64,000 nt of DNA from the NCBI GenBank assembly GCA_963817235.1, contig CAWFNS010000006.1:204163-268162 (forward strand), written 5' to 3'. The position numbers were made by a program, and so were the translations under genes. The notes below the pieces were generated by a model. That model saw nothing but the letters and a program-made list of their open reading frames with translations, was not told the origin of the DNA and ran no database searches. Below, one piece after another: positions 3,190 to 47,541 of this stretch (the stretch's first letter is position 1; each line of letters starts with the position of its first letter). Source of the DNA: an uncultured Actinomycetes bacterium (lineage in GTDB: Bacteria; Actinomycetota; UBA4738; HRBIN12).

Positions 3190-4404
3190 CGACCCTTGCG
3201 CTGGAGTACTTCCGTAGCGTGCCCCGATACGTTGGCGCCCGAACCGTCGGCGCGAAAGCCCCGGGGTTGATCGCCGGACCGCTCGCGCCGCTCCGCCTGG
3301 CGCAGATCAAGGATCCCGCCCCGCCGAAGGGCCGCGACGGCTGGGTGCGCGTGAAGCCGGTCCTGTCCGGCATCTGCGGCAGCGATCTGTCGACCCTGGC
3401 CGGGCGCTCCTCGTTCTACTTCTCGCCGCTCGTGTCGACGCCGTTCGTCCCCGGCCACGAGGTGGTCGGCGAGCTCCTCGACGCGGTCGACGACATCCCC
3501 GTGGGCGGCCGCGTCGTGCTCTCGTCGGTGCTGGGATGCGAGGCTCGCGGCGAGGACCCGCTCTGCCCGAACTGCGCGGCCGGCGACGTCGGCCGCTGCG
3601 ACCGCGTCACCGTCGGGCACCTGAAGCCCGGCCTGCAGACCGGCTACTGCGCGCAGACGGGCGGCGGCTGGAGCCGGCAGTTCGTCGCGCATCGCTCGCA
3701 GCTCCACGCGGTCCCCGACGCGACCTCGGACGAGGCCGCCGTGCTGGTCGAGCCGTTCGCGTGCGCGATCCACGCCGCGCTCCGTGCCCGGATCGAGCCG
3801 GGGCAGACCGTCGTGATCGTCGGGGCCGGGACCGTCGGGATCCTCACGCTCATCGCGGTGCGGCTGCTCACGCAGCCGGGACAGGTCATCGTCGCCGCGA
3901 AACATCCGAAGCAGCGCGCGGCCGCGCGTCTGGCCGGCGCGGACGAGGTCGTGCTTCCCGCGCACACGGCGAAGGCCGTGCGGCGGGTCAGCAGCGCGGT
4001 GAAGCTCACGCCGGAGCGCGGCCAGGACTTCCTGCTCGGCGGCGCCGACGTGGCGATCGAGTGCGTCGGCTCTCGCGGCGGACTCGATCTGGCGCTGCGG
4101 ACGGTCCGGGCCGGCGGCCGTGTGGTCGTGAGCGGCATCCCCGGCGCCGGCGCGGATCTCACGCCGCTGTGGTTCCGCGAGCTCGAGCTGGTCGGCGCGT
4201 ACACCTCCGGCACGGAGACCATGCCCGACGGATCGCGCGTGCGGACGTTCGATCTGGCGCTCGGCGCGGCCGGGAACCTGCCCGGTGCTCGAGCAGCTGG
4301 TCGGGGCCACGTATCCGCTGGACCGGTGGCGCGAGGCGATCGACCACGCGATGTCCGCCGGGAAGCTCGGCACGTTCAAGGTGGCGTTCGCGCCGCAGGG
4401 ATAA
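3186..4404 (+). CDS. Zinc-dependent medium-chain alcohol dehydrogenase/reductase (frame disruption near 4275-4295)
   Basis: Motifs GICGSD, PGHEVVGE, the structural-Zn cluster CEARGEDPLCPNCAAGDVGRC, and Rossmann GAGTVG. The C-terminus LEQLVGATYPLDRWREAIDHAMSAGKLGTFKVAFAPQG is in another frame and ends at TAA 4402-4404. Confidence 0.8.
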
Positions 4405-4420
4405 GGAGAGCCGCAGACAG

Positions 4421-6011
4421 ATGCCCAGACCAGGGTTCGTGTTGGAGGTGGACGAGCGGACGCCGCCCTTGATCGTCCACGAGGGCGAGGGCTACCGGAT
4501 GCAGCGGTTCCCGCTGGGCACGCGCGTCGTGTACCCGCCGGATCCGCTGCCGGGCCTGCGCGACCTCAACGCGCAGATCCGTCGCGCGCTGCTCGAGCCG
4601 GCCGGCGATCAGGAGCCGCTGCCCGAGCTGTTGTTCGCGGGGATGAAGCTCACGATCGCGGTCGACGACCTCTCGGTCCCGCTGCCGCCGATGGTGACCC
4701 CGGACGTGCGTCAGCGCGTGCTCGAGCACGTGATCGAGCTGGCCGCCCGCGCCGGGGTGGAGGACCTCGAGATCGTCGTGGCGACGGCGCTGCACCGCCG
4801 GATGACGCCCGAGGAGATCCGCCGGATGGTCGGCGAGCGCGTCTACCGCTCCTTCTGGCCCGATCGCCTGTACAACTTCGACGCCGAGGACAAGGACGGG
4901 CTCGCGTACATCGGCCAGACCGACATGGGCGAGGACGTCGAGATCATGAAGCGGGCGGCCGAGTCCGACCTGATCGTCTACGTGAACATCAACCTCGTGG
5001 CGATGGACGGCGGCCACAAGTCGGTCGCGATCGGCCTGGCCAGCTACAAGAGCCTTCGGCACCACCACAACGTGCACACGATGCTCGAGTCGAAGAGCTA
5101 CATGGATCCGCGTCCGGGACACTCGGCGATCAACGACTCGAGCATCCGGATGGGCAGGCTCCTCGCCGCCAACGGCGTGAAGGTGTTCCAGATCGAGACC
5201 ACGGTGAACAGCGAGACCTTCCCGTCGCAGCTCGGGTTCCTCAACAAGCGGGAATGGGAGTGGTCCGTGAAGGACCAGGCCCTGATGATGGCCGCGAAGA
5301 AGGGGAACGACCTCGCGCCGCCGCGCGTGCGGCGGGAGTTCTTCCGTCGGATCGAGGCGTCGTACAAGGTCACCGGCGTCAACGCCGGCGAGGTGGAGGC
5401 GGTCCACGAGCGGACGCTCGAGAACCTGCACCGCCAGCAGCTGGTCGAGGTGAGCGGCCAGTCCGACGTCGTGGTGATGGGGATCCCGTACCTCGGGCCG
5501 TACAACGTCAACTCGATCCTGAACCCGATCCTCGTGCACTGCCTCGGGCTCGGGCTACCTGTTCAACATGTACCGGAACGCGCCGCTCGTGCGCGAGGGC
5601 GGCGTCGCGATCCTGTACCACCCGGTGCCGTGGGAGTTCCACACGATCCACCACCCGAGCTACATCGACTTCTTCGAGGAGGTCCTGGCCGACACGACGG
5701 AGCCGAAGGAGATCGAGGACCGCTACGAGGAGCGGTACGCGACCGACCCCTGGTACACGCACCTGTACCGCACGTCGAACGCGTATCACGGCGTGCACCC
5801 GTTCTACATGTGGTACTGGGGCGCGCACGGCCGGGACCACTGCGGCAGCGTGATCTTCGTCGGCGGCGAGCCGAAGACGGTGGCGCGCCTGGGCTACCGC
5901 CGCGCCGACTCGCTCCGCGACGCGTTGGAGATGGCGAAGGACACCGTGGGCTCGTCGCCGTCGATCACGTACTTCCACGCGCCGCCGATCATGATCGCCG
6001 ACGTCCGGTAG
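4421..6011 (+). CDS. LarA-like (DUF2088, nickel-pincer-dependent racemase/epimerase family) protein (frame disruption near 5535-5565)
   Basis: The internal ATG at 4421 of ORF 3536..6193 (MPRPGFVLEV...) joins ORF 5568..6011. Motifs ATALHRR and MDGGHKS...RHHHNVH resemble the catalytic His, the cofactor-tethering Lys and the Ni-ligand His of LarA. Confidence 0.7.
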
Positions 6012-6015
6012 AGCG

Positions 6016-6925
6016 ATGGGCGCGCGCGACGAACTGCAGGAGATGGCCCGGGGGTTCCGGTGGGGGCGCCGACCCCTGGTGCCGCGCTCGGCCGAGCCGT
6101 ACACCGAGGAGCGTGAGGACGGAGGGTTCCCGACGGACTGGGCCCGGACCGCGGGCGGCGTCGCCGCGCGACAGGCGATCCTCCAGGGGTTGATGCATCC
6201 GCTCGTGAAGAACGAGCTGTCGCTCCGGGTCTACGGTCTCGACCGGCTGCGCGACGTGCGCGGCCCGGTGATCTTCTACTCGAACCACTCGAGCCACCTG
6301 GACGCGACGCTGATCATGTGCACCCTGCCCGACCGGTTCCAACGCAAGACGGCCGTCGGCGCCGCGCGCGACTACTTCTTCGACGTGTGGTGGCGGCAGG
6401 CGTTCACCGCGCTCGTGTTCGCCGCGTTCCCGATCGATCGCGGTCGCGGCGGCCAGGGCGCGATCGACAAGGCCCGGGAGCTCGTCCGCGACGACTGGTC
6501 CATCGTGGTCTTCCCCGAAGGCACGCGATCGCCGGACGGGCATCTCCAACGGTTCCGGCACGGGGCGGCGCGCCTCGCGCTGGAGCTGGAGGTCCCGTGC
6601 GTGCCGATCGCGATCGTCGGCGCGTTCCAGGCGATGCCGAAGGGCAAGTGGTGGCCGCGGGAGGGCCGGCCGGTCGTGACCATCCGCTACGGGGAAGCGA
6701 TCGAGGCCACAGACGGCCGAGACGCACCAGTCGCTGTCGTTGCGGATGCAGCAGGCCGTGGCGCAGCTGTTCGACGAGGATCGGACGTCGTGGTGGGAGG
6801 CGATCGGTCGTGCCGACCGCGGTGAGACGCCGTCGCTCGCGGGGCCGTCCGGTTCGGCCTGGCGCCGCACGTGGGAGGGGACGCGGCCGGTGGCGCGCCG
6901 CGGCGAGCCGAAAGCCTGGCGATAG
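6016..6925 (+). CDS. plsC: 1-acyl-sn-glycerol-3-phosphate acyltransferase family (PlsC/AGPAT-like) (frame disruption near 6695-6740)
   Basis: NHSSHLD (HX4D) and FPEGTRS acyltransferase motifs. The C-terminal part (MQQAVAQLFDEDRTSWWEAI...) is in ORF 6740..6925. Confidence 0.8.
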
Positions 6926-8189: not shown

Positions 8190-11100
8190 TCAGCCGGCCG
8201 CCAGGACCGCCGCCGCCTCGGGGGCTGCGCGGACGACGGCGGCGTGCTCGGGCGTGAGCGTCGCGATCCACGTCTCCAAGATCTCGCTGGGCTCCGCGGC
8301 GTTGGCTGAACCCGCGTCGGCATCGTCGCCCGCGGTATAGGCGCACCGGGAGCGCGCGGCCCACGCCTGCCAGCGAGGCGTCACGCCGCCCAGTTGCTCG
8401 GCCAGCTCCGTGGCGATCTTGAACTCGGCGAGTCCCTCCTCCCGCCGGCCGAGGGTCACCAACGCCTCGCCCAGCAGCACCCGGGCCGCCGATTCGTACT
8501 TCGGTCGCGTCGCTCGTCGCGCGCGCTCGATCGCGTCGAGCGCCGAGCTCGCCGTCGCGCCGGCGTCCTCCGCTTCGCGAGCGATCTGCGTGCGGACCAA
8601 GGCGAGGCGGCAGCCGCCGTTCCACGGGCGCCAGGCCTTGCCGTTGATCGCGGCATCCCACAGCTCCGGCCATCCGCGTTGCGCGGCGCCGACGTCGCCA
8701 TCCATCAGGTCGGCGAGGAGCAGATCGATCCTGCCTTGGAGGAGCGGCATCCCCCATTCGCCGTGCGTCTGGACCAGTTCGACCGCCGCCTCGTTGCGCC
8801 GGCGGGCCTCGTCGACGAGGAACAGATCGCGATACCCCATCGAGGAGTAGTTCAGCGGCGCCGCTCCCCAGCGAGGCACCCCCAGCTCCTGCGCCTGCGC
8901 GACGATCCGCTCGAGGATGTCGAGGCCATCCTCGGTGCGCCCCATCGCGAGGAGCGTCAGGCCGTGCCACGCGCCTCCGCGGACGAGCGGCTCCACGGCG
9001 TGGGTCGCACCGCCGACGTCGAAGACCTGCCGCGAGAGCTCCTCCGATCGCGCGTAGTCGCCCATCCAGTACGCGCACTCGAACAGCGCCTCCTCGGCAA
9101 GCGCGAAGCGGCTCGGCCGGCTGCCGGCGACGCGGAGCTCGAGCGCGCGTTCGCCGGTGGCGACGGAGTCCGGCAGGACGCCGGCGTTGAGGCCGGCGAG
9201 ACTCAGGCAGGCGAGGGCTGCCGCCGTCTGGTCGCGGTCGCCGACCGCCTCCGCCCGTTCGACGGCGCGGTGTGCGATCTCCTCCGCGGCCGGATCCTCG
9301 AGCCACGTCGCGGACCAGCCGAGGACCAGCAGCGCCTCGACCTCGTCCTTGCCGGCGAGCCGCGGGAGGATGTCGTGCACCTCGGACGTGACGGTCTCGA
9401 ATTCGCTGAGCTCGACCATGATCATCGCCCGGCGGAGCCGGATCCGATCCGCCGTCGCTTGGTCGTCGGAGGCGAGCTCGACCGCCTGATCGAGCAGCGC
9501 CACGGCCTCGTCGCTGGCCCACGACTCCGCCGCGCGCTCGGCCGAGATCAGCAGGTACTCAACGGCCTTCGCGCTCTCGCCCGCCTCCCGCCAATGGTGG
9601 GCAAGCAACCAGGAGAGTTCCCGCCGCCTGCCCAGATCGCGATGCTCGATGTAGCCGGCGATGCTCGCGTGGCGCTCCCGCCGGACGGCCTTGGGAAGGG
9701 TCCCGTAGGCGACCTCCCGGATCAGCATGTGGCGGAACGAATACTCGACGTCGCCCGCGACCTGGCTGCGCGGCTCCCGTCGGATCAGGTCCCGCGCCTC
9801 CAACGTGTCGAGGCGGTCATCGAGGTCCGGATCCGGATGGATCGCGCCGAGCACGCCTGCCCAGAAGGTGCGCCCGATCACCGACGCATCGAGGAGCGCG
9901 GCCCGGGGTTCGACGGGCAGCAGATCGATCCGCGAGGCGATCGCCTCCCGGACCGCGGTGGGCAGGACGCGGTCCTCGCCCGGGCGATCGGTCATGGACG
10001 CCGCCAGTTCCTCGATGAACAGCGGGTTCCCGCCGGAGACCTCGACGATCTTGCCGATCGCCGGGTCCGCGCCACCGCCGAGGACGGCGGCCGCGATCGC
10101 CGAGGCGTCCTCGGTCGAGATCGGACCCAGGGGGATCGTCGTCTGCGGGATCATCCCTCCGCCCCAGGACCGACCCGCGGCGGCGGCCTCCGGTCGGGTG
10201 AGCATCAGGAACACCACGGGGACGTCCCGAACGCGCTCCGCGAGGTGTTCGATCAACTCGAGCTGGCTGGCCCCTGCCCAATGGATGTCCTCGAACCGGA
10301 GCATCCCGGGCCGCACCGCCCCCCAGCCTTCGATGAAGCGCCGCATGGCGTAGAACAGCTGGGTCCGGTCGTCGGTCGGCGCGTCCTCGCCGAGGCCCAG
10401 GAGCAGCGACAGGTACCGGGTGACGTCGGCCGCCTCTTCTGCGGGCAGGAGCTCGGCGACCGACGACGCGAGCTTCGCTCGGGCGACGCCGCCCGGGTCG
10501 CTCTCGAGGATCCCGGCGATCGAACGGATCTGTTCGCTCGACGCGGGATAGCCGGCGACCTCTTCGTACGGCAGACAGCGACCGCTCGCCGAGCCGGCCC
10601 CCTCCGCATCGACGCGCCGCAGGAACCCGCGGGACAGCCGTGATTTCCCGATGCCCGGGGGACCGAGGATCGTGACGACGTGCGGCCGGCGCTCCTCGCG
10701 CACGGTGGCCCAGACCGACGCGAGCTGGTCCATCTCGCGGTCGCGACCGATCAGCGGCGTCCGATCCGAACCCACCGACCCCGTGTCGGACGCACCGAGG
10801 GCGATCCAGGCGGCGACCGGCTCGCGTTTGCCTTTCGCGTCGATCGCCTCGATCGGCTCGTACCGGATCGTGCGCCGCGTTGCGCGGTAGGTCTCGGCGC
10901 CGACGATCACGCCGCCGGGCGGCGCCGCTCCCTGGAGCCGCGCCGCCGTGTTGATCACGTCGCCGGTGGCGAACGCCTCGCCCAGCTCGGGCCGGGCCGA
11001 GACGGCGACCAACGCCTCGCCCGTGTTCACCGCCGCCCGAGCTTGCAGCTGCAGACCGGGGTGCTCGGCGTTCAGCTCGCCGATCGCCTCCAGCACGCGC

Positions 11101-11432
11101 AGCCCAGCTCGGACCGCCCGCTCCGCGTCGTCGCCGTGGGCGACGGGCGCACCGAACACGGCCACCACGGCGTCCCCGATGAACTTCTCGACGGTCCCTC
11201 CGAACCGCTCGAGCTCGTCGCGGGCCCGCTCGTGGTACCAGCGCAGCTCTTCCCGGACCTCCTCGGGGTCGGCGTCCTCGGCCCGCGCCGTCGAGCCGAC
11301 CAGATCGACGAACAGCGCCGATACGAGCTTGCGCTCATCGGTCGTCGCGGCACGTGCCAGCTCGACCCCGCAGGACTGGCAGAACCGCGCGTCATCTCCG
11401 TTGTCGTGGCCGCACCGTGGGCACGCCGGCAT
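8190..11432 (-). CDS. Zinc-ribbon / class III adenylate-guanylate cyclase / STAND (AAA) ATPase / TPR-like multidomain protein
   Basis: 1080 aa. N-terminal CPRCGHDNGDDARFCQSCG. Cyclase homology domain (LFVDLVGSTARAE...KFIGDAVVAVFG). P-loop ILGPPGIGKSRL. Long helical-repeat C-terminus with no recognisable HTH output. Confidence 0.85.
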   Translation of the reverse strand: MPACPRCGHDNGDDARFCQSCGVELARAATTDERKLVSALFVDLVGSTARAEDADPEEVREELRWYHERARDELERFGGTVEKFIGDAVVAVFGAPVAHGDDAERAVRAGLRVLEAIGELNAEHPGLQLQARAAVNTGEALVAVSARPELGEAFATGDVINTAARLQGAAPPGGVIVGAETYRATRRTIRYEPIEAIDAKGKREPVAAWIALGASDTGSVGSDRTPLIGRDREMDQLASVWATVREERRPHVVTILGPPGIGKSRLSRGFLRRVDAEGAGSASGRCLPYEEVAGYPASSEQIRSIAGILESDPGGVARAKLASSVAELLPAEEAADVTRYLSLLLGLGEDAPTDDRTQLFYAMRRFIEGWGAVRPGMLRFEDIHWAGASQLELIEHLAERVRDVPVVFLMLTRPEAAAAGRSWGGGMIPQTTIPLGPISTEDASAIAAAVLGGGADPAIGKIVEVSGGNPLFIEELAASMTDRPGEDRVLPTAVREAIASRIDLLPVEPRAALLDASVIGRTFWAGVLGAIHPDPDLDDRLDTLEARDLIRREPRSQVAGDVEYSFRHMLIREVAYGTLPKAVRRERHASIAGYIEHRDLGRRRELSWLLAHHWREAGESAKAVEYLLISAERAAESWASDEAVALLDQAVELASDDQATADRIRLRRAMIMVELSEFETVTSEVHDILPRLAGKDEVEALLVLGWSATWLEDPAAEEIAHRAVERAEAVGDRDQTAAALACLSLAGLNAGVLPDSVATGERALELRVAGSRPSRFALAEEALFECAYWMGDYARSEELSRQVFDVGGATHAVEPLVRGGAWHGLTLLAMGRTEDGLDILERIVAQAQELGVPRWGAAPLNYSSMGYRDLFLVDEARRRNEAAVELVQTHGEWGMPLLQGRIDLLLADLMDGDVGAAQRGWPELWDAAINGKAWRPWNGGCRLALVRTQIAREAEDAGATASSALDAIERARRATRPKYESAARVLLGEALVTLGRREEGLAEFKIATELAEQLGGVTPRWQAWAARSRCAYTAGDDADAGSANAAEPSEILETWIATLTPEHAAVVRAAPEAAAVLAAG

Positions 11433-16098: not shown

Positions 16099-16172
16099 GT
16101 CGGGACGGCGGGATTTGAACCCGCGACCTCAGCGTCCCGAACGCTGCGCGCTACCAAGCTGCGCTACGTCCC
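16099..16172 (-). tRNA. tRNA-Pro: tRNA-Pro (anticodon CGG)
   Basis: The reverse strand reads CGGGACGTAGCGCAGCTTGGTAGCGCGCAGCGTTCGGGACGCTGAGGTCGCGGGTTCAAATCCCGCCGTCCCGA. It has a 7-bp acceptor stem, anticodon loop TTCGGGA and a GGTTCAAATCC T-arm. CCA is not encoded. Confidence 0.9.
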
Positions 16173-16197
16173 GAGGCCCAGATTGTAGCCCGCGCGT

Positions 16198-39701: not shown

Positions 39702-40604
39702 CTACCCGAGGTCGAGGCCGAGCAGCTCGCCCAGCTCGTGCCCGTTCCGCACGGCGAAGTCCTGGTAGCAGTTGTTCATCAGGACGTGGGTCTCACGCGT
39801 TTCCTTCGCGAGCGCGTCGATCCTGGGGACCCATTCCGAGAGCTCGTCCTTCGTGTAGTCGTACCGGAAGCGCTCGCTGGCGGTCTCGGCCTTCGAGGTC
39901 CACGCCTCCTTGCTCCGACCGTGGAAGCGGACCATGGAGATGTCGGACGCGGTGGCCGCCGCGACCGGCGGGATGCTCGAATCGAACCCCTGCGGCATGT
40001 CCACGCACACGTACGGCAGGTTGCGCTCCTGCAGGAACGACAGCGTCTCCTCCGCGTTCCGCTCCTCCATCCAGCTCTTGTGCCGGAACTCGACCGCCAC
40101 GCGGTAGTCGGGCAGCCGCGCGGCGCATTCCTCGATGTACGCCTTGCTCGTCTTCGAGATGACGAACCACTGCGGGAACTGGAAGAGCACGGCGCCGAGC
40201 TTCCCGGCCGAGTGCAGCGGCATCAGCGCGTCGCGGAACCGCTGCCACACCTCCTCCACGACCTCGTCGGGGAGCTTGTCTCGATACACGCGGCGTTTCC
40301 CCTCCGGGAGGAGGGGCTGGAGGTCCTTGTAGATCGACTCGGCCCGCGTCGGGTGGTTCGTGAGGAGCGAGTAGGCCTTGATGTTGAAGGTGAATGCCGG
40401 TGGTGTTCGCTCGATCCACAGCACGGAGTTCTGTTCCGACGGCGGGAAGTAGTAGGTGGAATCCACCTCGACGATCGGGAAGCGCGACGCGTAGAACTGC
40501 AGGCGTTTCTCGGCCGTGTGCGCGTCCGGCGGGTAGAAGTTCCCGTCCTTGATCAGCGTCTTGTCCGTCCAGGAGGACGTGCCGATCAGGATCTGCCCGG
40601 CCAC
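39702..40604 (-). CDS. DUF72 (UPF0759/YecE-like) family protein
   Basis: 300 aa. IGTSSWTDKTL...FYPP, FPIVEVDSTYY, LFQFPQWF and VEFRHKSW are characteristic of DUF72. Confidence 0.75.
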   Translation of the reverse strand: MAGQILIGTSSWTDKTLIKDGNFYPPDAHTAEKRLQFYASRFPIVEVDSTYYFPPSEQNSVLWIERTPPAFTFNIKAYSLLTNHPTRAESIYKDLQPLLPEGKRRVYRDKLPDEVVEEVWQRFRDALMPLHSAGKLGAVLFQFPQWFVISKTSKAYIEECAARLPDYRVAVEFRHKSWMEERNAEETLSFLQERNLPYVCVDMPQGFDSSIPPVAAATASDISMVRFHGRSKEAWTSKAETASERFRYDYTKDELSEWVPRIDALAKETRETHVLMNNCYQDFAVRNGHELGELLGLDLG

Positions 40605-40607
40605 GGA

Positions 40608-41036
40608 TCAGTCGGCGTCGACCGACGTACTCGGGTCCGCTTCCCTCTTCGTGCGTGCCGACTTGCGTCGGAGCGTCTTGTCGGCGGCGGCCTGCGCCAC
40701 GTCCTTGGCCTTCATCAGCAGCCGGCGCGCCCACATGTACTCGGTGGCGAGGATCCCGAGACCGACGAAGATCAGCGCCCATCCCGGAAGGATCGGCAAC
40801 GCGAGCCCCGCGATCCCGAGGAGCAGGACGACGGTTCCGGCGACGGTGACCGCGATGCGCTTGCCGCTGCGGCGGATGAACCGGCCGATCGCCTTGAACG
40901 GGACGAACGCGGGGTGATCGTGCCAGCGACGCGCGGCGGCCGGCGCGACGGCTTCGAGCTCGGCGACGACGGCCGACGCGTCGACCTCCTCCGGTTCGTC
41001 GCCCCAGATGTCTGGCTGCCGCTCAGGCTCGGTCAT
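40608..41036 (-). CDS. PGPGW-motif small membrane protein
   Basis: 142 aa with two TM helices around LPILPGWALIFVGLGILATEY. Confidence 0.65.
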   Translation of the reverse strand: MTEPERQPDIWGDEPEEVDASAVVAELEAVAPAAARRWHDHPAFVPFKAIGRFIRRSGKRIAVTVAGTVVLLLGIAGLALPILPGWALIFVGLGILATEYMWARRLLMKAKDVAQAAADKTLRRKSARTKREADPSTSVDAD

Positions 41037-41196: not shown

Positions 41197-42606
41197 ATGG
41201 CAACGATGGTTGGTGCTCGACGACCGAGAGTGCGGGCGGCGACGCCGAGGATCCTTGGCCGTCCGGGTGTATTCATGGGTTGTCACCGCAGTGTTTGTTT
41301 CCGCGTCGATAATCGGTTGGCGCCGATCTGCTGTCACGACGATGGAGAACGTCGACGAGTTGATCGCCTTCACGCTCGCAGCGATGGCTGCGGACTTCCT
41401 CCGCGTTCGGCTCTGGCGCGAGATGTCATTTTCTGTTTCCCTCCCTGTCCTCCTAGCAGCAGGAATGATCCTGCCCCCTTGGCAGGCCGCAGCGGTCGCC
41501 TTTGTCGGGTCAATGGATGTCCAAGAGATTCGCCGAGGAGTGCCCTTCTCTCGCATGGTGTTCAATCGTTCGGAGATTGGGCTGAGCGTGATGGCGGCCT
41601 CTGCAGGGTTTCACGCGCTAGCGGGTGACAGCGTGAGTTGGCCCTCGGTACTTGTGCCATCGCTCGTCGCTCTTGCTTAGACGCCGCAGTCAACGCGGCG
41701 CTTGTTGCCTGGCCGGTGGCCAAACTCCACGCCGTTTCGACTGGTGATGTCGTGCGGCGGATGTTCGGTCCCAGGTATGGCGAGAGTCTGCTTCGGTACG
41801 TTGGAGTGGGTCTGATGGCGCCTCTTATCGCTATCGTGTGGCTGACAACTGGTGCATACGGGCTGGCGGCATTTCTCATCCCCTCGGGCTTGGCCTGGTC
41901 GTCCTACGTCGAAGCTGAACGGCTGCGCCGAGGCCTCGGTACAAATCGAGACGAAGAACCAGAGCCTCATGCTGGCGCTTGACGGCGATCGCTTCTGAAA
42001 GGCGAGACGAACGCCTCGTCCTCGCCGGCGAGCTGCATGATTCAGTGCTTCCTGCAATGTTCAAGGTCCAGCTCATGGGGCAGGTGATGCGGCAAGACCT
42101 GGCCGAGGGCAAGCTGCTCGATCTCGAAGATGACCTGCCTCCACTCAATGAGGCGATATCCGAAGCCCAAGATACGAGTCAGAGGCGTGACTGGCGGCTT
42201 GCGAGAATCGTCCGTTGGTCCCGGCGGTCTGGCAAGCGCGCTCAAGAGCCTCGCGGGTGACTTAGAAGCGGTCTCCTCGACGAGATTCGAACTCGATTTA
42301 GACGAAGTCGAGGCGACCGATACGGCCCAGCTCGTTGCCTACCACGTCGGGCGTGAGGCGATGATGAACGCATCCAAGCACTCGAAGGCGGATCTTGTTT
42401 CCGTGTCTTTGAAGCAGACGACTGACGGCGTCAGTCTCGAGATACGGGATTCCGGCGTCGGCTTTGCGCCGCGATTCGATAGCAAGCCGCTTCATTTCGG
42501 CATGGAACTCATGGCCGAGCGAGCGGAGGCAGCTGGCGGGAGGCTCTCCGTCGAGTCGTTCCTCGGGAAGGGCACGACTGTCGTCTCTGTTCCTCCCGAA
42601 GGCTGA
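41197..42606 (+). CDS. Orphan sensor histidine kinase 1, HisKA_3/HATPase_c with polytopic N-terminal domain (3-4 frame disruptions; possibly decayed)
   Basis: ATG at 41197 after GGGGAGGGGG. The pieces are ORFs 41210.., 41638.., 41979.. and 42130..42606. H-box LAGELHDSVLP, N-box REAMMNASKHS, G1 IRDSGVGF, G2 FGMELMAERA. Lower GC than the flanks. Confidence 0.65.
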
Positions 42607-42644
42607 ATCAATCGCGGACGAGGGCAAGCGCCTCGCATAGTCAG

Positions 42645-42674
42645 AAGAGGCCCCCGGTTTCCCGGGGGCCTCTT
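42645..42674. terminator. 13-bp GC-rich hairpin between convergent genes (probable bidirectional intrinsic terminator)
   Basis: AAGAGGCCCCCGG-TTTC-CCGGGGGCCTCTT, located 39 nt after the kinase-1 stop and 25 nt after the mini-gene stop. No long U-tract on either strand. Confidence 0.6.
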
Positions 42675-42698
42675 GGAATCTCAGAAGAGTCGAGTCGC

Positions 42699-42788
42699 TT
42701 AGCCTGGCACTTTCCAGTGCGCCCCACCGGCAAGGGCGAGGGCAGCGATCGACCCGAGGGCCAAAACCACCCTGCGGACGAGCTTCAT
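42699..42788 (-). CDS. 29-aa signal-peptide-like mini-protein MKLVRRVVLALGSIAALALAGGAHWKVPG
   Basis: Not in the ORF track (too short). ATG at 42788 preceded by GGAGAAAGGGAGGA with a 5-nt spacer. TAA at 42699-42701. Has an n-region KLVRR, a hydrophobic core and an ALA motif. Followed by the hairpin at 42645-42674. Confidence 0.45.
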   Translation of the reverse strand: MKLVRRVVLALGSIAALALAGGAHWKVPG

Positions 42789-42928
42789 GAACGTCCTCCC
42801 TTTCTCCGGACCCCCAGTTGGGGGACACGCACGTCACTATCGGGGGACCCCTCCCGGGGGACAAGGCGGAATAACGGCCTACTTCATATGAACTATCGTG
42901 CCTACTTGCCTGGCAGGCTGCGGGCGTC

Positions 42929-44466
42929 ATGATGTTTGGCCGTGGACGAGGAGGAGCGCTCCCGGGCGGCGAAGCTGCTGATTGTCGAGATCGGCGTGAT
43001 TGTTCCGACCGTCGTTCTTATCGCGATCCTAGTCCCGCGCCAGGACCCTTCCTTCAGAGTCGTGCTTCTCTTGTGGTCTCTCCTAATCACTGCCATCGAG
43101 TTTCTTCCCGTGCCCGCATGGCGTGGTCTAACGATTAGCGTCGGATTCCCAGTCCTGATGAGCTGGCGATCTTGTACCCAGTCAGGCACGGCCGGCTTGC
43201 TCACTCTGCTGGGCACTGCAGACCCCGAGAATTCCGAAGGGAAGTCGGAATCGCACCGGCTCTCTTCAACCGGAGCCAGGTTGCCCTGTCAGTTCTGGCG
43301 GCGAGTGCTGTGTTTCACGTCTTTCAGCCTCCGGATCCAGCCAAAGACTGCTCGAAGCCAATCCGCTGATCATCGTTGGCGCAGCAGCTTCTTGCCGCGG
43401 TCGCCGACTATGCCGTCAACGTGAGCTTGGTGACGTCTACATGAGTACGAAGCTCGAAATCCCGCCTCTTCAGATGCTGCGGCAGCTCACTATCGGCAAT
43501 GTGCGCGATTTCCTCGTTGGGTACCTTGGGCTTGGACTTCTTGGTCTGACTCAAGCTGTGCTCTTTCAAGGCAATCTGGCGCCTTCTCGCTTCCCGTCTT
43601 CCTGGCGCCGTCTCCTGTTCGCTCGCCAGATGTTCTTCCGCACCCACGCTCTCGAGGAGGCGCACGTCGAGCTCAAGGAACGCGAAGAGATCCTTCGAGA
43701 CCTTTCGAACACGATGGCCGAGGAGCGCGCCGACGAGCGATTACAGATCGCCGGCTATCTCCATGATGACCTCGCCCAGGTGCTGTTCCGGCTCAGCCTC
43801 CAGGTCGACGTTGCGCGCAAGCTCCTCGACAAGAACGACTTCGTGGATCTCCGTCAGCAGCTCGAGAAGATCCGCGAGTCGAAGCAGGAGACCTCGGACC
43901 GGATCCGCGCGCTCATCCGCGAGCTGCACCGCTCCCCGCTCGGCGCGAAGGGTCTCGCGGAGGCGCTCGAGTCGTTCACGGACGAGGTCGGGCGCGACTC
44001 GGGCGTGCAGTTCAAGCGGGACGTCCAGGACCTCGATCTGCCGGCGCCGATCGCGTTGTTGGTCTTCCAGATCGCCCGCGAGGCGATCTTCAATGCTCTG
44101 AAGCATGCGCGGGCCACCGAGATGTCGATCTCGGTGACGGAGGACGAAGAGGACATCGTCTTGCGGCTGATGGACAACGGCGTCGGGTTCGACACCTCGG
44201 CGCCCGGTCCTGAAGGGCACTACGGCATGGCGACGATGCGCGAACGCGCGAAGGTCGGTGGAGGCTCGTTCGACGTCGCGAGCGAACCCGGGAAGGGAAC
44301 CACGATCGTGGTGCGGTTCCCGATCGCGCTGCTCCAGCAGGATCAGGCGCCCGAGGGCTCGTCGCCGAACGGCTCGGCGGGCCACGTCGTCCCCGGCGCG
44401 ATCGGAGGATCGCCGCGCACGAGCGAGGGCGCGGGGCCGAGGTCCGAGGCCGGCCGTCCCCGCTAG
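42929..44466 (+). CDS. Orphan sensor histidine kinase 2, HisKA_3/HATPase_c, paralogue of kinase 1 (frame disruptions in the membrane domain, about 43150-43440)
   Basis: Pieces are ORFs 42929/42936.., 43172.. and 43441..44466. H-box IAGYLHDDLAQVL, N-box REAIFNALKHA, G1 MDNGVGF, G2 HYGMATMRERA. Its N-terminal domain shares the FNRS[EQ]..LSV.AASA.FH motif with kinase 1. Confidence 0.75.
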
Positions 44467-46404
44467 AGGTGCTGGCGGAACCACCCCACGATCCGTTCGA
44501 TCCGATCCACGCGGCGGTCCGGCCGGCCGTTCGTCTTGAGGCCGTGCGGCTCGTTCGGGTACCTGATCATCTCCACCGTCGCGCCGGCGCGATGCAGGAC
44601 CGCGAAGGCGATGTCGGTGTTGATCGGTGGGCATCGCAGATCGCCGTCCGTGTGCAGCAGCAGCATCGCTGCTCGAGCTCGATGCAGCGACCGGTACGGT
44701 GAGGCGGCGACGAGCTCCTCGACGTGCTGCGGGACCCGCGACTCACCGACGGCCGACGCGGCGATCTCGAACGGGAAGTCGGCGCCGCCCCACTCCGCGA
44801 CGTGATCCGTGACGGGGTTCTCGCTGACCAATGCTCGGAACCGATCCGGATGGTGGCCGGCCAGGTGGTTCACGAGGTACCCGCCGTAGGACGCGCCCAT
44901 CGCGCCGACGCGATCGGCATCCACGATGCCGTCGGCCGCGAGCCGATCCAGGAGCGCGAGCAGCTCCCGCGTGTCGGGATCGCCCCAGTCGCCGAACAGC
45001 CGGCGAGCGAGATCCTCTCCGTACCCGACGGAGCCCGACGGGTTCGCGTAGACGACGTGGAACCCGGCGCTCGCCACCGCGGTCATGTCGAGCCACGGCG
45101 TCGCCGAGTGCATCGCGTGGGGGCCGCCGTGGATCTGCAGGACGGTCGGGCGGCGACCGCGTCCGCCGCTGAGGAACCACGCGTCGATCGACCGCGGCCG
45201 CGTCGCGAACTCGCTGATCCGCTCGGGGTCGCGCCGGAACGGTCCGAACCACCGGCCGCCGTCGGTCGTGATCCGTCGAGCGCCGCCGTCCGCGACCTCG
45301 TAGAGCTCGGGAGGGCACGCGCGGTCGGTCGCCAGCAGCACGACGCGCCCGCCGGCGGTCCGCTCCTCGATCGAGACCATCTCGCCATCGACCAGCCGCT
45401 CGATCGATCCGTCGAGACCGATCCGATGCGGCAGGGCGGTTCCGTGATCCGAGACGGAGACGACGAGGTTCCGCTCGTCGAGCCAGTGCGGCTCCTGCGC
45501 GCCGAGCAACCCGCCCGTGAACAGGTCGCCGTACGCGAAGTTGCCGATCGGACGGTCGAGCTCTTCCGCCAGTTGGACCCAGCCCCTGCCGTCCCGCACG
45601 AACAGCGCGCTGTTCTGCCATCCCGCGATGAACGGCAGCCGGTTCGCGATGACGGCCAGACGACCTTCCGGCGACCAGGCCGCCCCCATCGCGCCGCCCG
45701 GGAACGACGTGAGCGGGCGGAGCCGACCTCCGTCCGGCGAGACGAGGAACGGTTGCGGCACCTCGCCGTCGATCGTCCCGTCGGGCGTGGCCGCCAGGAC
45801 GGCGATCGACGTCCCGTCCGGCGCCCAGATCGCGCTCGCGGCGTTGCGGCGTGGCCGGCGTGATCCGTCGCGGCTTCCCTCGGCCCGACGCGGACGCGAT
45901 CCACACCGCGGACAACTGATCGATGACCCCGGCGCCGTCGAGCCGCCAGAACGGCGTCGTGATCCGGCGCACGGTCGGATCCGACGCGACGCCCTCGATG
46001 AATCGCTGCTCGCCGTTCGGGGCGATCACGGCGACCCGCCGCCCGTCGGGCGCCCACTCCGCGGCGGCGACCCCGTCGGGGAAGCCGGGGAGCATCGACG
46101 CCTCGCCGCCCCCGAGCGGCATCACCCAGACCTGCGGCTTCTCGCCTTCGCGATCCGACACGAACAGCACCCGGCCGCCGTCCGGAGAGATCCGCGGGCG
46201 TCCGTCCGACGCGTCCGGGTCCGTGAGCCGTTCGGGACGGCCGCCGTCCACGGCGACCCGCCACAGGCGCGACCGGTACCGATCGCGTTCGATCGTCTGC
46301 CGTGCGTACACCGCCGTCGAGCCGTCGGGCGCGAGATCGAAGCCCGTGATCCGGACCTGCGAGCGGACGTCCGCGCCGCGGAACGGACGGGGGGCGTTGG
46401 CCAT
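44463..46404 (-). CDS. S9-family serine peptidase (prolyl oligopeptidase/acylaminoacyl-peptidase-like) (frame disruption near 45850)
   Basis: Beta-propeller N-terminus in ORF 44743..46404. Catalytic domain in ORF 44463..45761 with GASYGGY (Ser), HTDGDLRCP (Asp) and NEPHGL (His). Confidence 0.8.
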
Positions 46405-46460
46405 CGGTCGAGCTCCTTCGGAACGGTTCGCGCGAACGCTACCCCGTTCGCCGGTACCGT

Positions 46461-47541
46461 GTGACGCCGATGGACGAACGATGGCGCTTCGAAGGGGTGC
46501 GGCTCCCGGACGGTGAGCTCGACGCGCTGTGGATCGGGGACGGGCTGCTCCGGCGGAGCGCCGTGGACGGCGCCGAGCTCCTCCCGGGACGGTTCGTCCT
46601 GCCGGGTCTCGTCGATGCGCACGCGCACCCGACGATCGATATGGCCGAGCGAGGAGCCCCGTGGGGGAGCGAGGCGCTCGTCGAGGCGAACCTGGAGGAG
46701 AACGCGTTCGCGGGCGAGTTGCTGATCCGCGAGATCGGCGCCGTGGGCGACCGATGGAGCCTCGAGGGGATCGGCGAACGCCTCCCGCGGATGCAGCGGG
46801 CGGGACGCTTCGTGGCTCCGGCTGGCGGGTACTACGACTGGCTGGGGGTGTTCACCCAACCGGAGGCGGCGCGAGACGAGGTCGGTCGCCAGATCGCGGC
46901 CGGCGCCACCTGGATCAAGGTGGTCGGCGACTGGCCGGTCGACGGCGGCATCAGGGTGAACTACGAGCCCGAGGTCCTGCGCGGCCTCGTGGATGCGGCG
47001 CACGCGGCCGGCGCGAGGGTCGGCGCCCACGTCATGTCGCGTGCGGCGACCGAGGTGGCGATCGAGGCGGGCGTCGACTCCCTGGAGCACGCGCCGTTGC
47101 TGGACGAGGCTCTGCGTCCGACGGATGGCCGAACTCGGCGCGGCGTGGACGCCGACCCTGGCGGCGGTCGGGCCGTTGCTCGATGGCTCCGAGGATCCGG
47201 TCCGGCTGGCGTTCATGGCGGGGGAGCTCCGGGAGGCCGGCGAGCGCTATCCGACCGTGCTGCGGACGGCCCGCGCGCTCGGGGTGCCGGTGCTCGCCGG
47301 CACCGACGTCCTGCCGCCCGGATCGATGGCGGTCGAGATCGCGGCCTTGCATCGATGGGGTCTGTCGCCGACGGAGGCGCTCGAGTCGGCGACGACCGTC
47401 GCTCGCGCGTACCTCGGAGAACCGGCGTTGGACACGGGTGCCCGCGCCGACCTCGTCACCTACGACGCGGACCCGCGGGAGGACCCCGAGGTGCTGCGGA
47501 CGCCGGCGTCCGTGCTCCTGCACGGCCGTCGCATCCGGTGA
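46461..47541 (+). CDS. Amidohydrolase-family metal-dependent hydrolase (frame disruption near 47105)
   Basis: LPGLVDAHAHP (HxH). GARVGAHV...SLEHA. The C-terminal part is in ORF 46993..47541 (AGTDV...ADLVTYDADP). Confidence 0.7.

What the first reader, a model, noticed from the sequence alone, without database searches (positions are those of the whole stretch)
42699..42788. Unannotated 29-codon signal-peptide-like gene between the two orphan kinases: a candidate exported short peptide
What the sequence shows, on the minus strand: GGAGAAAGGGAGGA-cgttc-ATG AAG CTC GTC CGC AGG ... TAA encodes MKLVRRVVLALGSIAALALAGGAHWKVPG. It has a basic n-region, a 14-residue hydrophobic core and an A-L-A motif, followed by the 9 residues GGAHWKVPG. 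A 13-bp GC hairpin follows 25 nt downstream. Its codon usage matches the low-GC island.

Established knowledge: Sec-exported short precursors that release C-terminal oligopeptides sensed by cognate receptors are known in Firmicutes (for example the Phr peptides).

Inference: this could be a secreted signalling peptide, or a small membrane modulator, working with the flanking sensor kinases. I know of no described equivalent in high-GC Gram-positives. It could equally be a chance ORF or a single-pass micro-protein.
Basis: partly seen in the sequence, partly recalled or inferred. Interest (0 to 1): 0.7.

Follow-up and report, generated by a model that had tools for sequence, protein, structure and literature searches.

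The report
Conserved 27-29-residue kinase-linked membrane microprotein gene
The 29-codon reading frame is a real, strongly conserved but unnamed gene for a tiny hydrophobic protein that always sits between two membrane sensor kinases in uncultured soil Actinomycetota. It most likely works with those kinases, either in the membrane or as an exported peptide.

Summary
An ORF at 42699-42788 (-) encodes MKLVRRVVLALGSIAALALAGGAHWKVPG. It has a strong Shine-Dalgarno site, and a 13-bp GC hairpin follows it.

It is not a chance ORF. The same gene lies on the opposite strand just upstream of the second kinase in all 76 related loci that include that DNA. A DNA-pattern scan found it in 120 further metagenome contigs.

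The family has 135 distinct peptides of 27-31 aa. The consensus is MK-x-x-[RK]-R-[IV]AIALGSL-x-A-x-ALAGGAH[WFY][KR]-x(1-3), with R6 and A-G-G-A-H invariant. Variation concentrates at third codon positions (median dN/dS 0.24), and every other frame is interrupted in some members.

Each copy has its own conserved promoter-like element, ribosome-binding site and terminator hairpin. Pfam, NCBIfam and the searched papers have no name for it; databases call members "hypothetical protein".

The two flanking kinases (MASE9 + HisKA_3 + HATPase_c) are intact in a syntenic contig and frameshifted in this window, probably through assembly errors.

Paralogous copies sit beside a SARP-type regulator, behind SARP-box-like direct repeats.

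Best reading (about 0.45): a single-pass membrane microprotein that modulates the kinases. Main rival (about 0.3): a signal-peptide-like precursor of a short exported peptide. These tools cannot separate the two.

The parts
42699..42788 (-). Coding sequence of the microprotein (29 aa plus stop): MKLVRRVVLALGSIAALALAGGAHWKVPG
   Evidence: Read directly. Homologues occur in 76/76 kinase-anchored loci and in 120 metagenome loci. Codon-position entropy is 0.72/0.37/1.41 and median dN/dS is 0.24. All other frames are interrupted in 10-158 of 175 distinct members.
42794..42807 (-). Shine-Dalgarno region GGAGAAAGGGAGGA, 5 nt upstream of the ATG
   Evidence: Read. A purine-rich SD-like element lies at -16 to -4 in 202 of 205 family instances.
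42836..42864 (-). Promoter-like element: TTGTCC (42864-42859), 17 nt, GATAGT (42841-42836). It would leave a 5' UTR of about 45-55 nt
   Evidence: The conserved block appears in the alignment of 181 upstream regions. The pattern TTG[TA]C[CA]-N17/18-[GCT]ATA.T occurs in 102/181 regions and in 0 shuffles. The generic sigma-70 scan did not call it. The transcription start is inferred, not shown.
42820..42862 (-). Three copies of GTCCCCC (42862-42856, 42848-42842, 42826-42820). The first overlaps the -35 element, the second lies in the spacer just before the -10, and the third lies in the 5' UTR followed by GGGGG. Candidate operator or UTR hairpin
   Evidence: These are the most enriched 8-mers upstream of the family; TGTCCCCC occurs in 121/181 regions. 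At least 2 GTCCCC occur in 114/181 regions. The function is inferred.
42645..42674 (.). 13-bp GC hairpin between the convergent microprotein gene and kinase K1. Likely a bidirectional terminator
   Evidence: Fold. A hairpin with non-conserved sequence follows 87% of 77 family members at z < -2, median z -3.3.
41206..42640 (+). Kinase K1 (MASE9-like membrane domain + HisKA_3 + HATPase_c), convergent with the microprotein gene. Broken by frameshifts in this assembly
   Evidence: Intact 476-aa orthologue in L002. tblastn mapping, indel list, Pfam.
42942..44466 (+). Kinase K2 (MASE9-like membrane domain + HisKA_3 + HATPase_c), divergent from the microprotein gene across a 153-nt intergenic region. 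Broken by frameshifts in this assembly
   Evidence: Intact 506-aa orthologues P0001 and P0002. Mapping, Pfam.

Best explanation
The ORF is a translated gene for a 27-31-residue hydrophobic microprotein. It is a fixed component of a conserved module in uncultured Actinomycetota: kinase K1 ->, <- microprotein, kinase K2 ->, often followed by a DUF5317 membrane protein.

Shown:
- The gene is conserved at the protein level.
- It keeps its own ribosome-binding site, promoter-like element and terminator hairpin.
- It is always adjacent to the kinases.
- Paralogous copies sit beside a SARP-type regulator.

Inferred mechanism:
- The peptide inserts as a single helix with its N-terminus inside. The basic residues K2, R/K5 and invariant R6 lie on the cytoplasmic side.
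- This places the invariant Gly-Gly-Ala-His-aromatic-basic motif at the outer membrane surface.
- There it binds the membrane-embedded MASE9 sensor domain of K2, and perhaps K1, and tunes kinase activity. This is how MgrB, SafA, YoaI or KdpF act on PhoQ, EnvZ or KdpD.
- Its conserved operator-like promoter suggests feedback control.
- The paralogues behind SARP-box-like repeats would let the SARP regulator feed into the same kinases, in the manner of a connector.
For: Real coding gene:
- It is present in 76/76 loci found through K2 homology (K2 identity 48-97%) and in 120 metagenome loci.
- There are 135 distinct peptides, with A20-G21-G22-A23-H24 and R6 invariant while third codon positions are nearly saturated.
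- pS is 0.60 against pN 0.24.
- The antisense frame that shares third positions is interrupted in 58/175 members.

Own expression signals:
- SD-like element in 202/205 instances.
- Promoter-like block in 102/181 upstream regions against 0 in shuffles.
- Terminator hairpins with non-conserved sequence.

Link to the kinases:
- 104 of 129 metagenome instances and 75 of 76 genome-locus instances lie within 700 nt of K1 or K2.

Membrane partner idea:
- Exactly 19 residues separate the invariant R6 from the basic residue 26, with no indel in 74 of 76 kinase-anchored loci.
- Small residues are strictly kept at positions 10, 12, 13, 16 and 20-23.
- MASE9 is thought to bind its ligand inside the membrane (10.1101/2021.11.05.467447).
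- Positions 25 and 26 covary preferentially with the membrane domain of K2: 18 of the top 20 columns, against a 54% background. Control characters reach this in 2.5-4% of cases.
- Precedents exist: KdpF-KdpD (PMC10730256) and YoaI-EnvZ (PMC11429745).
Against: - No localisation, topology or interaction could be tested here.
- The layout (basic n region of 6 residues, 13-residue hydrophobic core, then A-G-G-A) reads at least as well as a cleavable signal peptide.
- Small residues at -3 and -1 are invariant for cleavage after G22 or after A23.
- The hydrophobic-core positions show no preferential covariation with either kinase's membrane domain.
- The test for a conserved helix face was not significant, p = 0.07.
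- The covariation signal at positions 25 and 26 is weak. It rests on 34 tests confounded by phylogeny, and a ligand-receptor relation would predict it equally well.
- About 8 of 129 metagenome instances have no kinase or SARP regulator within 700 nt.
Confidence: 0.45

Rival explanations
1. Exported peptide signal. The whole product is a signal-peptide-like precursor. It would be cleaved by signal peptidase after G21, G22 or A23, or cut within the membrane as for SHP, iCF10 or iAD1. This would release a 4-8-residue peptide such as (G)AH[WFY][KR]x(1-3). The polytopic HisKA_3 kinases would sense that peptide, as ComP senses ComX, and the peptide gene would be under feedback control.
For: - The n/h/c layout fits, with invariant small residues at A-G-G-A.
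- The gene is monocistronic, has a strong SD and is transcribed divergently from its putative receptor gene. shp genes lie next to rgg in the same way (PMC3150281).
- Residues 25 and 26 and the tail differ between clades and between tandem paralogues (for example AHWRAG with AHFKVN), which resembles pherotypes.
- Positions 25 and 26 covary with the K2 sensor domain.
Against: - Only 3-6 residues follow the candidate sites.
- The tail after residue 26 varies in length (1-5 residues) and in sequence, whereas Phr-type signals are defined to their last residue.
- R6, A10, L11, S13, A16 and A20 and the exact length of the hydrophobic stretch are conserved more strictly than targeting alone requires.
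- A-H is invariant across kinases only 48-55% identical, which is unlike diversifying pheromones.
- No peptidase, ABC exporter, Opp system or RRNPP receptor is conserved in the neighbourhood.
- The searched literature and my own knowledge hold no described ribosomal peptide pheromone in Actinomycetota.
Confidence: 0.3
2. A membrane microprotein whose job is not kinase modulation. It would be an output of the regulators, for example a small subunit or stabiliser of another membrane complex such as DUF5317, a membrane-stress effector, or a type I-toxin-like pore former. The kinases or the SARP regulator would merely control its expression.
For: - Conserved operator-like repeats upstream, and SARP-box-like GTTAG repeats upstream of the paralogues, show that the gene is a regulated target.
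- Some copies lie away from kinases.
- A DUF5317 membrane protein is a frequent neighbour.
Against: - The strict position between K1 and K2 is kept over deep divergence. It is kept even where DUF5317 is absent, as in this window.
- No antisense RNA or overlapping transcript is evident. The hairpin separates the convergent genes.
- It is single-copy at a fixed locus, unlike type I toxins.
- A strong SD and promoter are unusual for a toxin.
Confidence: 0.17
3. A cis-acting leader or arrest peptide, whose translation matters rather than its product, or a chance ORF over a conserved DNA or RNA element.
For: - It is very short.
- It lies in a regulatory intergenic region.
- Some members end in R-A-G, faintly like the SecM/ApdA arrest motifs (my own recollection, not tested).
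Against: - A terminator hairpin and a convergent gene follow the ORF, so there is no downstream gene to regulate in the kinase context.
- Conservation is at the amino-acid level with saturated synonymous sites.
- The tail, including R-A-G, is not conserved.
- No Rfam family matches.
- The other frames are interrupted.
Confidence: 0.03

Closest known systems
Small membrane proteins that modulate sensor kinases: MgrB and SafA on PhoQ (own knowledge), YoaI on EnvZ (PMC11429745), mycobacterial KdpF on KdpD (PMC10730256)
   Same: All are under 65 aa (MgrB 47 and SafA 65 by my own recollection; KdpF 30 and YoaI within the <=50-aa small-protein class by the cited papers). Each has one hydrophobic helix flanked by basic residues. 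Each is expressed under the control of a signalling system and acts, or is proposed to act, on a membrane histidine kinase.
   Different: There is no sequence similarity. Here the gene is physically locked between two paralogous kinases across a whole lineage, whereas mgrB, safA and yoaI are unlinked to their target kinases. The kinases have a MASE9-type intramembrane sensor and no adjacent response regulator. The invariant GGAH[WFY][KR] motif has no counterpart. No interaction has been shown.
Short hydrophobic peptide pheromone precursors of Firmicutes: SHP/Rgg (PMC3150281), and PrgQ/iCF10 and iAD1 (own knowledge)
   Same: Precursors of about 20-30 residues that look like a bare signal peptide, with a basic N-terminus and a hydrophobic remainder. 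The gene has its own promoter and is transcribed divergently from the gene of the putative receptor.
   Different: The receptors there are cytoplasmic RRNPP/Rgg proteins reached through Opp import; here the neighbours are membrane kinases or a SARP-type regulator. No Eep, PptAB or Opp genes are linked. The C-terminal end is polar and basic (H-aromatic-K/R) rather than hydrophobic.
Phr/Rap and ComX/ComP of Bacillus
   Same: A short C-terminal peptide as the signal. ComP is a polytopic HisKA_3 kinase, and an aromatic residue is central to ComX.
   Different: Phr and ComX precursors are 38-73 aa with a pro-region, whereas only 3-6 residues are available here. No ComQ-like modifying enzyme or Rap protein is nearby.
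Type I toxins (TisB, Fst, Ibs and others; own knowledge)
   Same: Size and a single hydrophobic helix.
   Different: No antisense RNA is evident. The gene sits at a fixed single-copy syntenic position, has a strong SD and conserved promoter, and shows deep conservation of a specific motif.

Membership tests
Any curated protein family (Pfam-A, NCBIfam) | Significant match to a family profile | tested here: not met
   No family at E <= 1 in either library. Members already in the databases are 'hypothetical protein' with no Pfam domain.
Sec/SPase I-cleaved secreted peptide precursor (Phr type) | Tripartite signal peptide with small residues at -3 and -1 | tested here: inconclusive
The n(6)/h(13)/c(4) layout is present. 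A20-G21-G22 and G21-G22-A23 are invariant and compatible with cleavage. No SignalP was available.
Sec/SPase I-cleaved secreted peptide precursor (Phr type) | A pro-region, with the active oligopeptide at a defined C-terminus | tested here: not met
   Only 3-6 residues follow the candidate sites. The tail after residue 26 is 1-5 residues long and varies in sequence.
Sec/SPase I-cleaved secreted peptide precursor (Phr type) | Cognate Rap/RRNPP receptor gene adjacent | tested here: not met
   The neighbours are HisKA_3 kinases, PGPGW, DUF72, DUF5317, an S9 peptidase or a SARP-AAA-TPR regulator.
SHP/Rgg-type short hydrophobic peptide | Precursor of about 15-35 aa, transcribed divergently from its receptor gene | tested here: met
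   The product is 27-31 aa. It is divergent from K2 across about 150-300 nt, or divergent from or just upstream of the SARP regulator.
SHP/Rgg-type short hydrophobic peptide | Rgg (RRNPP) cytoplasmic receptor and an Eep/PptAB/Opp pathway | tested here: not met
   No such genes occur in the conserved neighbourhood. Elsewhere in the genomes was not examined.
Small transmembrane modulators of histidine kinases (a functional class, not a homology family) | A protein under about 65 aa with a single membrane-spanning helix | tested here: inconclusive
   Seventeen apolar or small residues (7-23) lie between the invariant R6 and H24-aromatic-basic, and the length is constant. No TM predictor was available and the hydrophobicity is moderate.
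Small transmembrane modulators of histidine kinases (a functional class, not a homology family) | Physical and functional interaction with the kinase | not testable with these tools
   Only indirect evidence is available: strict synteny and weak covariation of residues 25 and 26 with the K2 membrane domain.
Type I toxin-antitoxin | Overlapping or adjacent antisense RNA; variable, often multi-copy loci | tested here: not met
   There is one copy in the 64-kb window at a fixed syntenic position. A terminator separates it from the convergent gene. No Rfam match.
Leader or arrest peptide | A downstream gene on the same transcript whose expression it controls | tested here: not met
   A hairpin and then a convergent kinase gene follow it in the kinase context. 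Only 3 loci (L124, L148, L168) have a co-directional gene downstream.

The most novel reading that the evidence does not exclude
The microprotein is the precursor of a ribosomally made, exported oligopeptide signal, (G)AH[WFY][KR]x. A pair of MASE9 histidine kinases would sense it at or within the membrane. This would be the first peptide-pheromone-like system described in Actinomycetota. The clade-specific C-termini and the SARP-controlled paralogue pairs would act as pherotypes.

A more speculative sub-variant is cleavage after G21. That would expose NH2-Gly-Ala-His, a copper/nickel-binding ATCUN motif, and would make the peptide a metal-loaded signal.
Probability: 0.25. Interest if true: 0.8.

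Novelty: new variant of a known kind. Interest (0 to 1): 0.58.

Why it matters
Gene callers mostly miss this gene: of ten family sequences looked up, three, including the window's own, are absent from a 15-billion-protein collection, and it was not among the called genes of the three closest contigs.

It offers a concrete candidate partner or ligand for the MASE9 intramembrane sensor domain, whose signal is unknown. It also offers one for a pair of kinases that have no adjacent response regulator.

If it acts in the membrane, it extends the MgrB/SafA/YoaI principle to another phylum, in a form that is genetically hard-wired to its kinases. If it is exported, it would be a new class of actinobacterial peptide signal.

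Either way, it defines a family that could be given a profile model and annotated.

Tried and rejected
I reached the family through the kinase and through a degenerate DNA pattern.
- An exact look-up of the neighbouring DUF72 protein found nothing.
- Pfam and NCBIfam returned no family.
- Rfam returned only a tRNA elsewhere in the window.
- tblastn against plasmids found no match.
- The papers hold nothing for 'AGGAHW' or 'DUF5317'.
- The generic sigma-70 and terminator scan missed both the conserved promoter-like block and the hairpin, because there is no T-run.
- The test for a conserved helix face was not significant, p = 0.07 and 0.29, so I do not use it.
- Covariation of the hydrophobic core with the kinase membrane domains showed no consistent signal. 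Only residues 25 and 26 against K2 stand out, and weakly.
- I considered an antisense ORF on the + strand (42717-42932). It shares third positions with the mini-ORF but is interrupted in 58/175 members, so I rejected it.
- I considered recent horizontal transfer of a 'low-GC island'. I rejected it because the module is 7-8 points lower in GC than its flanks in all 56 genomes checked.
- I considered a double-glycine leader with a C39 ABC exporter, a lipobox and a Tat signal. There is no exporter, no Cys and no cargo; these judgements rest on my own knowledge.
- I did not run structure prediction.

Full report
**1. The observation**

The minus strand at 42788-42699 reads ATG AAG CTC ... GGC TAA. 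It encodes MKLVRRVVLALGSIAALALAGGAHWKVPG.
- GGAGAAAGGGAGGA lies at 42807-42794, 5 nt before the ATG.
- A perfect 13-bp GC stem (42674-42662 / 42657-42645, loop GAAA) starts 24 nt after the stop. The 71-nt stretch around it folds at -35.4 kcal/mol, and none of 200 shuffles folds as well.
- The hairpin lies 4 nt beyond the stop of the convergent kinase gene (42638-42640), so the two genes share it.
- The ORF has 65.6% GC and GC3 of 77%. The kinase island has 62% GC and the window 71%.

**2. The flanking genes**

Both flanking genes are HisKA_3/HATPase_c histidine kinases with a polytopic N-terminal domain that weakly matches MASE9.
- In this window each is split over several frames.
- Three syntenic ENA metagenome contigs carry the same gene order: DUF72, PGPGW, K1, K2, S9 peptidase, amidohydrolase.
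- In L002 both kinases are intact, at 476 and 506 aa.
- The window differs from L002 by about 25 single-base indels in K1 and K2, and by none in the mini-ORF.
- The S9 peptidase and the amidohydrolase are also frameshifted here.
- I read these frameshifts as errors of a long-read assembly rather than gene decay. The sister contigs are broken at different places.

**3. Conservation**

I used K2 (P0002) as an anchor and fetched 80 loci from GTDB species representatives. All are uncultured Actinomycetota MAGs.
- Every locus that includes DNA upstream of K2 carries the mini-ORF. That is 76 of 76, counting L001-L003. It lies on the opposite strand, roughly 150-300 nt from K2 and convergent with K1.
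- Five of these copies are cut by a contig end or an assembly error and were recovered with an HMM.
- K2 identity across these loci falls to 48-55%.
All encode family members.
- In total there are 205 instances and 135 distinct peptides of 27-31 aa. The start codon is ATG in 187, and an SD-like element is present in 202.
- The consensus is M-K-x-x-[RK]-R-[IV]-A-[IL]-A-L-G-S-L-x-A-x-A-L-A-G-G-A-H-[WFY]-[RK]-x(1-3).
- The window's VPG tail is one of the rarer long forms.

**4. It is protein-coding**

- In 74 distinct sequences from the kinase-anchored loci and the window, the mean entropy per codon position is 0.72, 0.37 and 1.41 bits.
- R6 and A20-G21-G22-A23-H24 never change, while their third positions are close to saturated.
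- Mean pS is 0.60 against pN 0.24, and median dN/dS is 0.24.
- The one antisense phase that would share third positions is interrupted by a stop in 58 of 175 distinct members. All other frames are interrupted in 10-158 members.
- A chance ORF, or a purely DNA- or RNA-level element, is therefore excluded.

**5. Its own expression signals**

- Upstream regions of the kinase-context copies align to a conserved block: cTTGTCCCCC...GGGGTCCCCCGATAGT...GTGTCCCCCa..tGGGGg...aGGAGg...ATG.
- TTGTCC-N17/18-GATAGT occurs in 102 of 181 regions and in no shuffle. It lies a median 57 nt from the ATG.
- GTCCCCC occurs three times in this block.
- Downstream, 87% of members have a strong hairpin whose sequence is not conserved.
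- The gene is therefore a monocistronic unit with promoter, SD, ORF and terminator.
- The transcription start and the role of the GTCCCCC repeats are inferred, not shown.

**6. A second genomic context**

- In 6 genome-locus instances and 21 metagenome instances, one or two tandem paralogues lie beside a protein of about 1250-1280 aa. A typical pair is ...AGGAHWRAG with ...AGGAHFKVN.
- That protein has Trans_reg_C, BTAD, AAA_16 and TPR domains, so it is a SARP/AfsR-like regulator.
- The paralogues are divergent from it or lie just upstream of it.
- They lack the GTCCCCC block. Instead they carry two or three (G)TTAG direct repeats spaced 10-12 nt apart: 12 of 23 such copies against 4 of 158 others.
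- That is the layout of SARP binding sites, by my own knowledge of SARPs.
- A DUF5317 membrane protein is often convergent with K2, but it is absent from this window.
- Eight metagenome instances have neither a kinase nor the regulator within 700 nt.

**7. What is known**

- No Pfam or NCBIfam family matches.
- Members present in the protein collections are 'hypothetical protein', for example GIU97609.1.
- No paper in the library holds the motif.
- MASE9 was defined as an intramembrane sensor domain whose ligand probably binds within the membrane.
- Small membrane proteins that act on sensor kinases are known. KdpF-KdpD is an example in mycobacteria, and YoaI-EnvZ in E. coli.

**8. Mechanism**

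Two readings fit the data, and neither could be tested directly.

(a) A resident single-pass microprotein, N-terminus inside, that presents GGAH-aromatic-basic at the outer surface and modulates the MASE9 kinases. In its favour:
- the invariant spacing between R6 and residue 26;
- the strict small-residue positions;
- the permanent linkage to the kinases;
- the precedents listed above.

(b) A signal-peptide-like precursor that is cut to release a 4-8-residue peptide sensed by the kinases. In its favour:
- the n/h/c layout and the invariant A-G-G-A;
- the divergent arrangement relative to the putative receptor gene;
- the clade-specific C-termini.

Covariation is weak evidence and fits both readings. 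Residues 25 and 26 covary mostly with the membrane domain of K2 (18 of the top 20 columns each; controls reach this in 2.5-4% of cases). The hydrophobic core shows nothing consistent.

I put (a) at about 0.45 and (b) at about 0.3. A regulated membrane effector unrelated to kinase control gets about 0.17, and a leader peptide or chance ORF about 0.03.

**9. Verdict**

The finding is real and the ORF is a gene. The family is unnamed and forms a new, kinase-locked variant of the small-protein-plus-sensor-kinase theme.

Noticed in passing
window 41200-47540: K1, K2, the S9 peptidase (44463-46404, -) and the amidohydrolase (46461-47540, +) are all frameshifted in this window. They are intact in one or other syntenic contig. 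Relative to L002 there are about 25 single-base indels in K1/K2, not confined to homopolymers. This looks like long-read assembly error rather than pseudogenes.
   Followed up: partly
window 41200-44466; loci L004-L083, positions about 3300-6450: The K1-microprotein-K2 module is 7-8 percentage points lower in GC than its flanks in all 56 genomes with full flanks (median 61.5% against 69.2%). The 'low-GC island' is a conserved property of the module, not a sign of recent transfer. The cause is unknown.
   Followed up: partly
window 42820-42864: Three GTCCCCC repeats are embedded in and just downstream of the promoter-like element. Two are followed by GGGG(G/T). They are conserved across most kinase-context loci and may be a candidate operator or a 5' UTR hairpin. 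No binding protein has been identified.
   Followed up: partly
L111 2067-2330; L139 570-830; L156 1080-1343; L028 549-700; L009 7105-7400: Tandem pairs of paralogous microprotein genes, one W-type and one F-type, lie next to a roughly 1250-aa SARP (Trans_reg_C + BTAD) + AAA_16 + TPR regulator. Three GTTAG direct repeats at about 11-nt spacing precede the first gene, which looks like a SARP box.
   Followed up: partly
L009 6352-7014 (-) and many metagenome loci (for example L095, L107, L129): A roughly 220-aa DUF5317 membrane protein is convergent with K2, often overlapping its 3' end, in most lineages. It is missing from this window, where an S9 peptidase takes that place. No paper in the library mentions DUF5317.
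   Followed up: partly
window 39702-41036: DUF72 (39702-40604, -) and a PGPGW-motif membrane protein (40608-41036, -) lie upstream of K1 and are divergent from it. This synteny is kept in many of the related genomes.
   Followed up: no
L045 4731-4820; L046 4715-4804: Two related MAGs carry a one-residue insertion in the invariant motif (AGGAAHWKA). These are the only length changes in the core among the kinase-anchored loci. They may be real or an assembly error.
   Followed up: no
window 9384-11345 (-): A region with 30% identity to the ATPase/TPR part of the SARP-type regulator, but without its N-terminal DNA-binding part. No microprotein copy lies next to it.
   Followed up: no
L124 4718-4801; L148 4489-4575; L168 1637-1723: An alternative arrangement. 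The microprotein gene lies upstream of the SARP regulator, is co-directional with it and is divergent from K1. K1 and K2 are then directly adjacent with no copy between them.
   Followed up: no
window 16100-16173 (-): A tRNA gene, the only Rfam match in the window.
   Followed up: no
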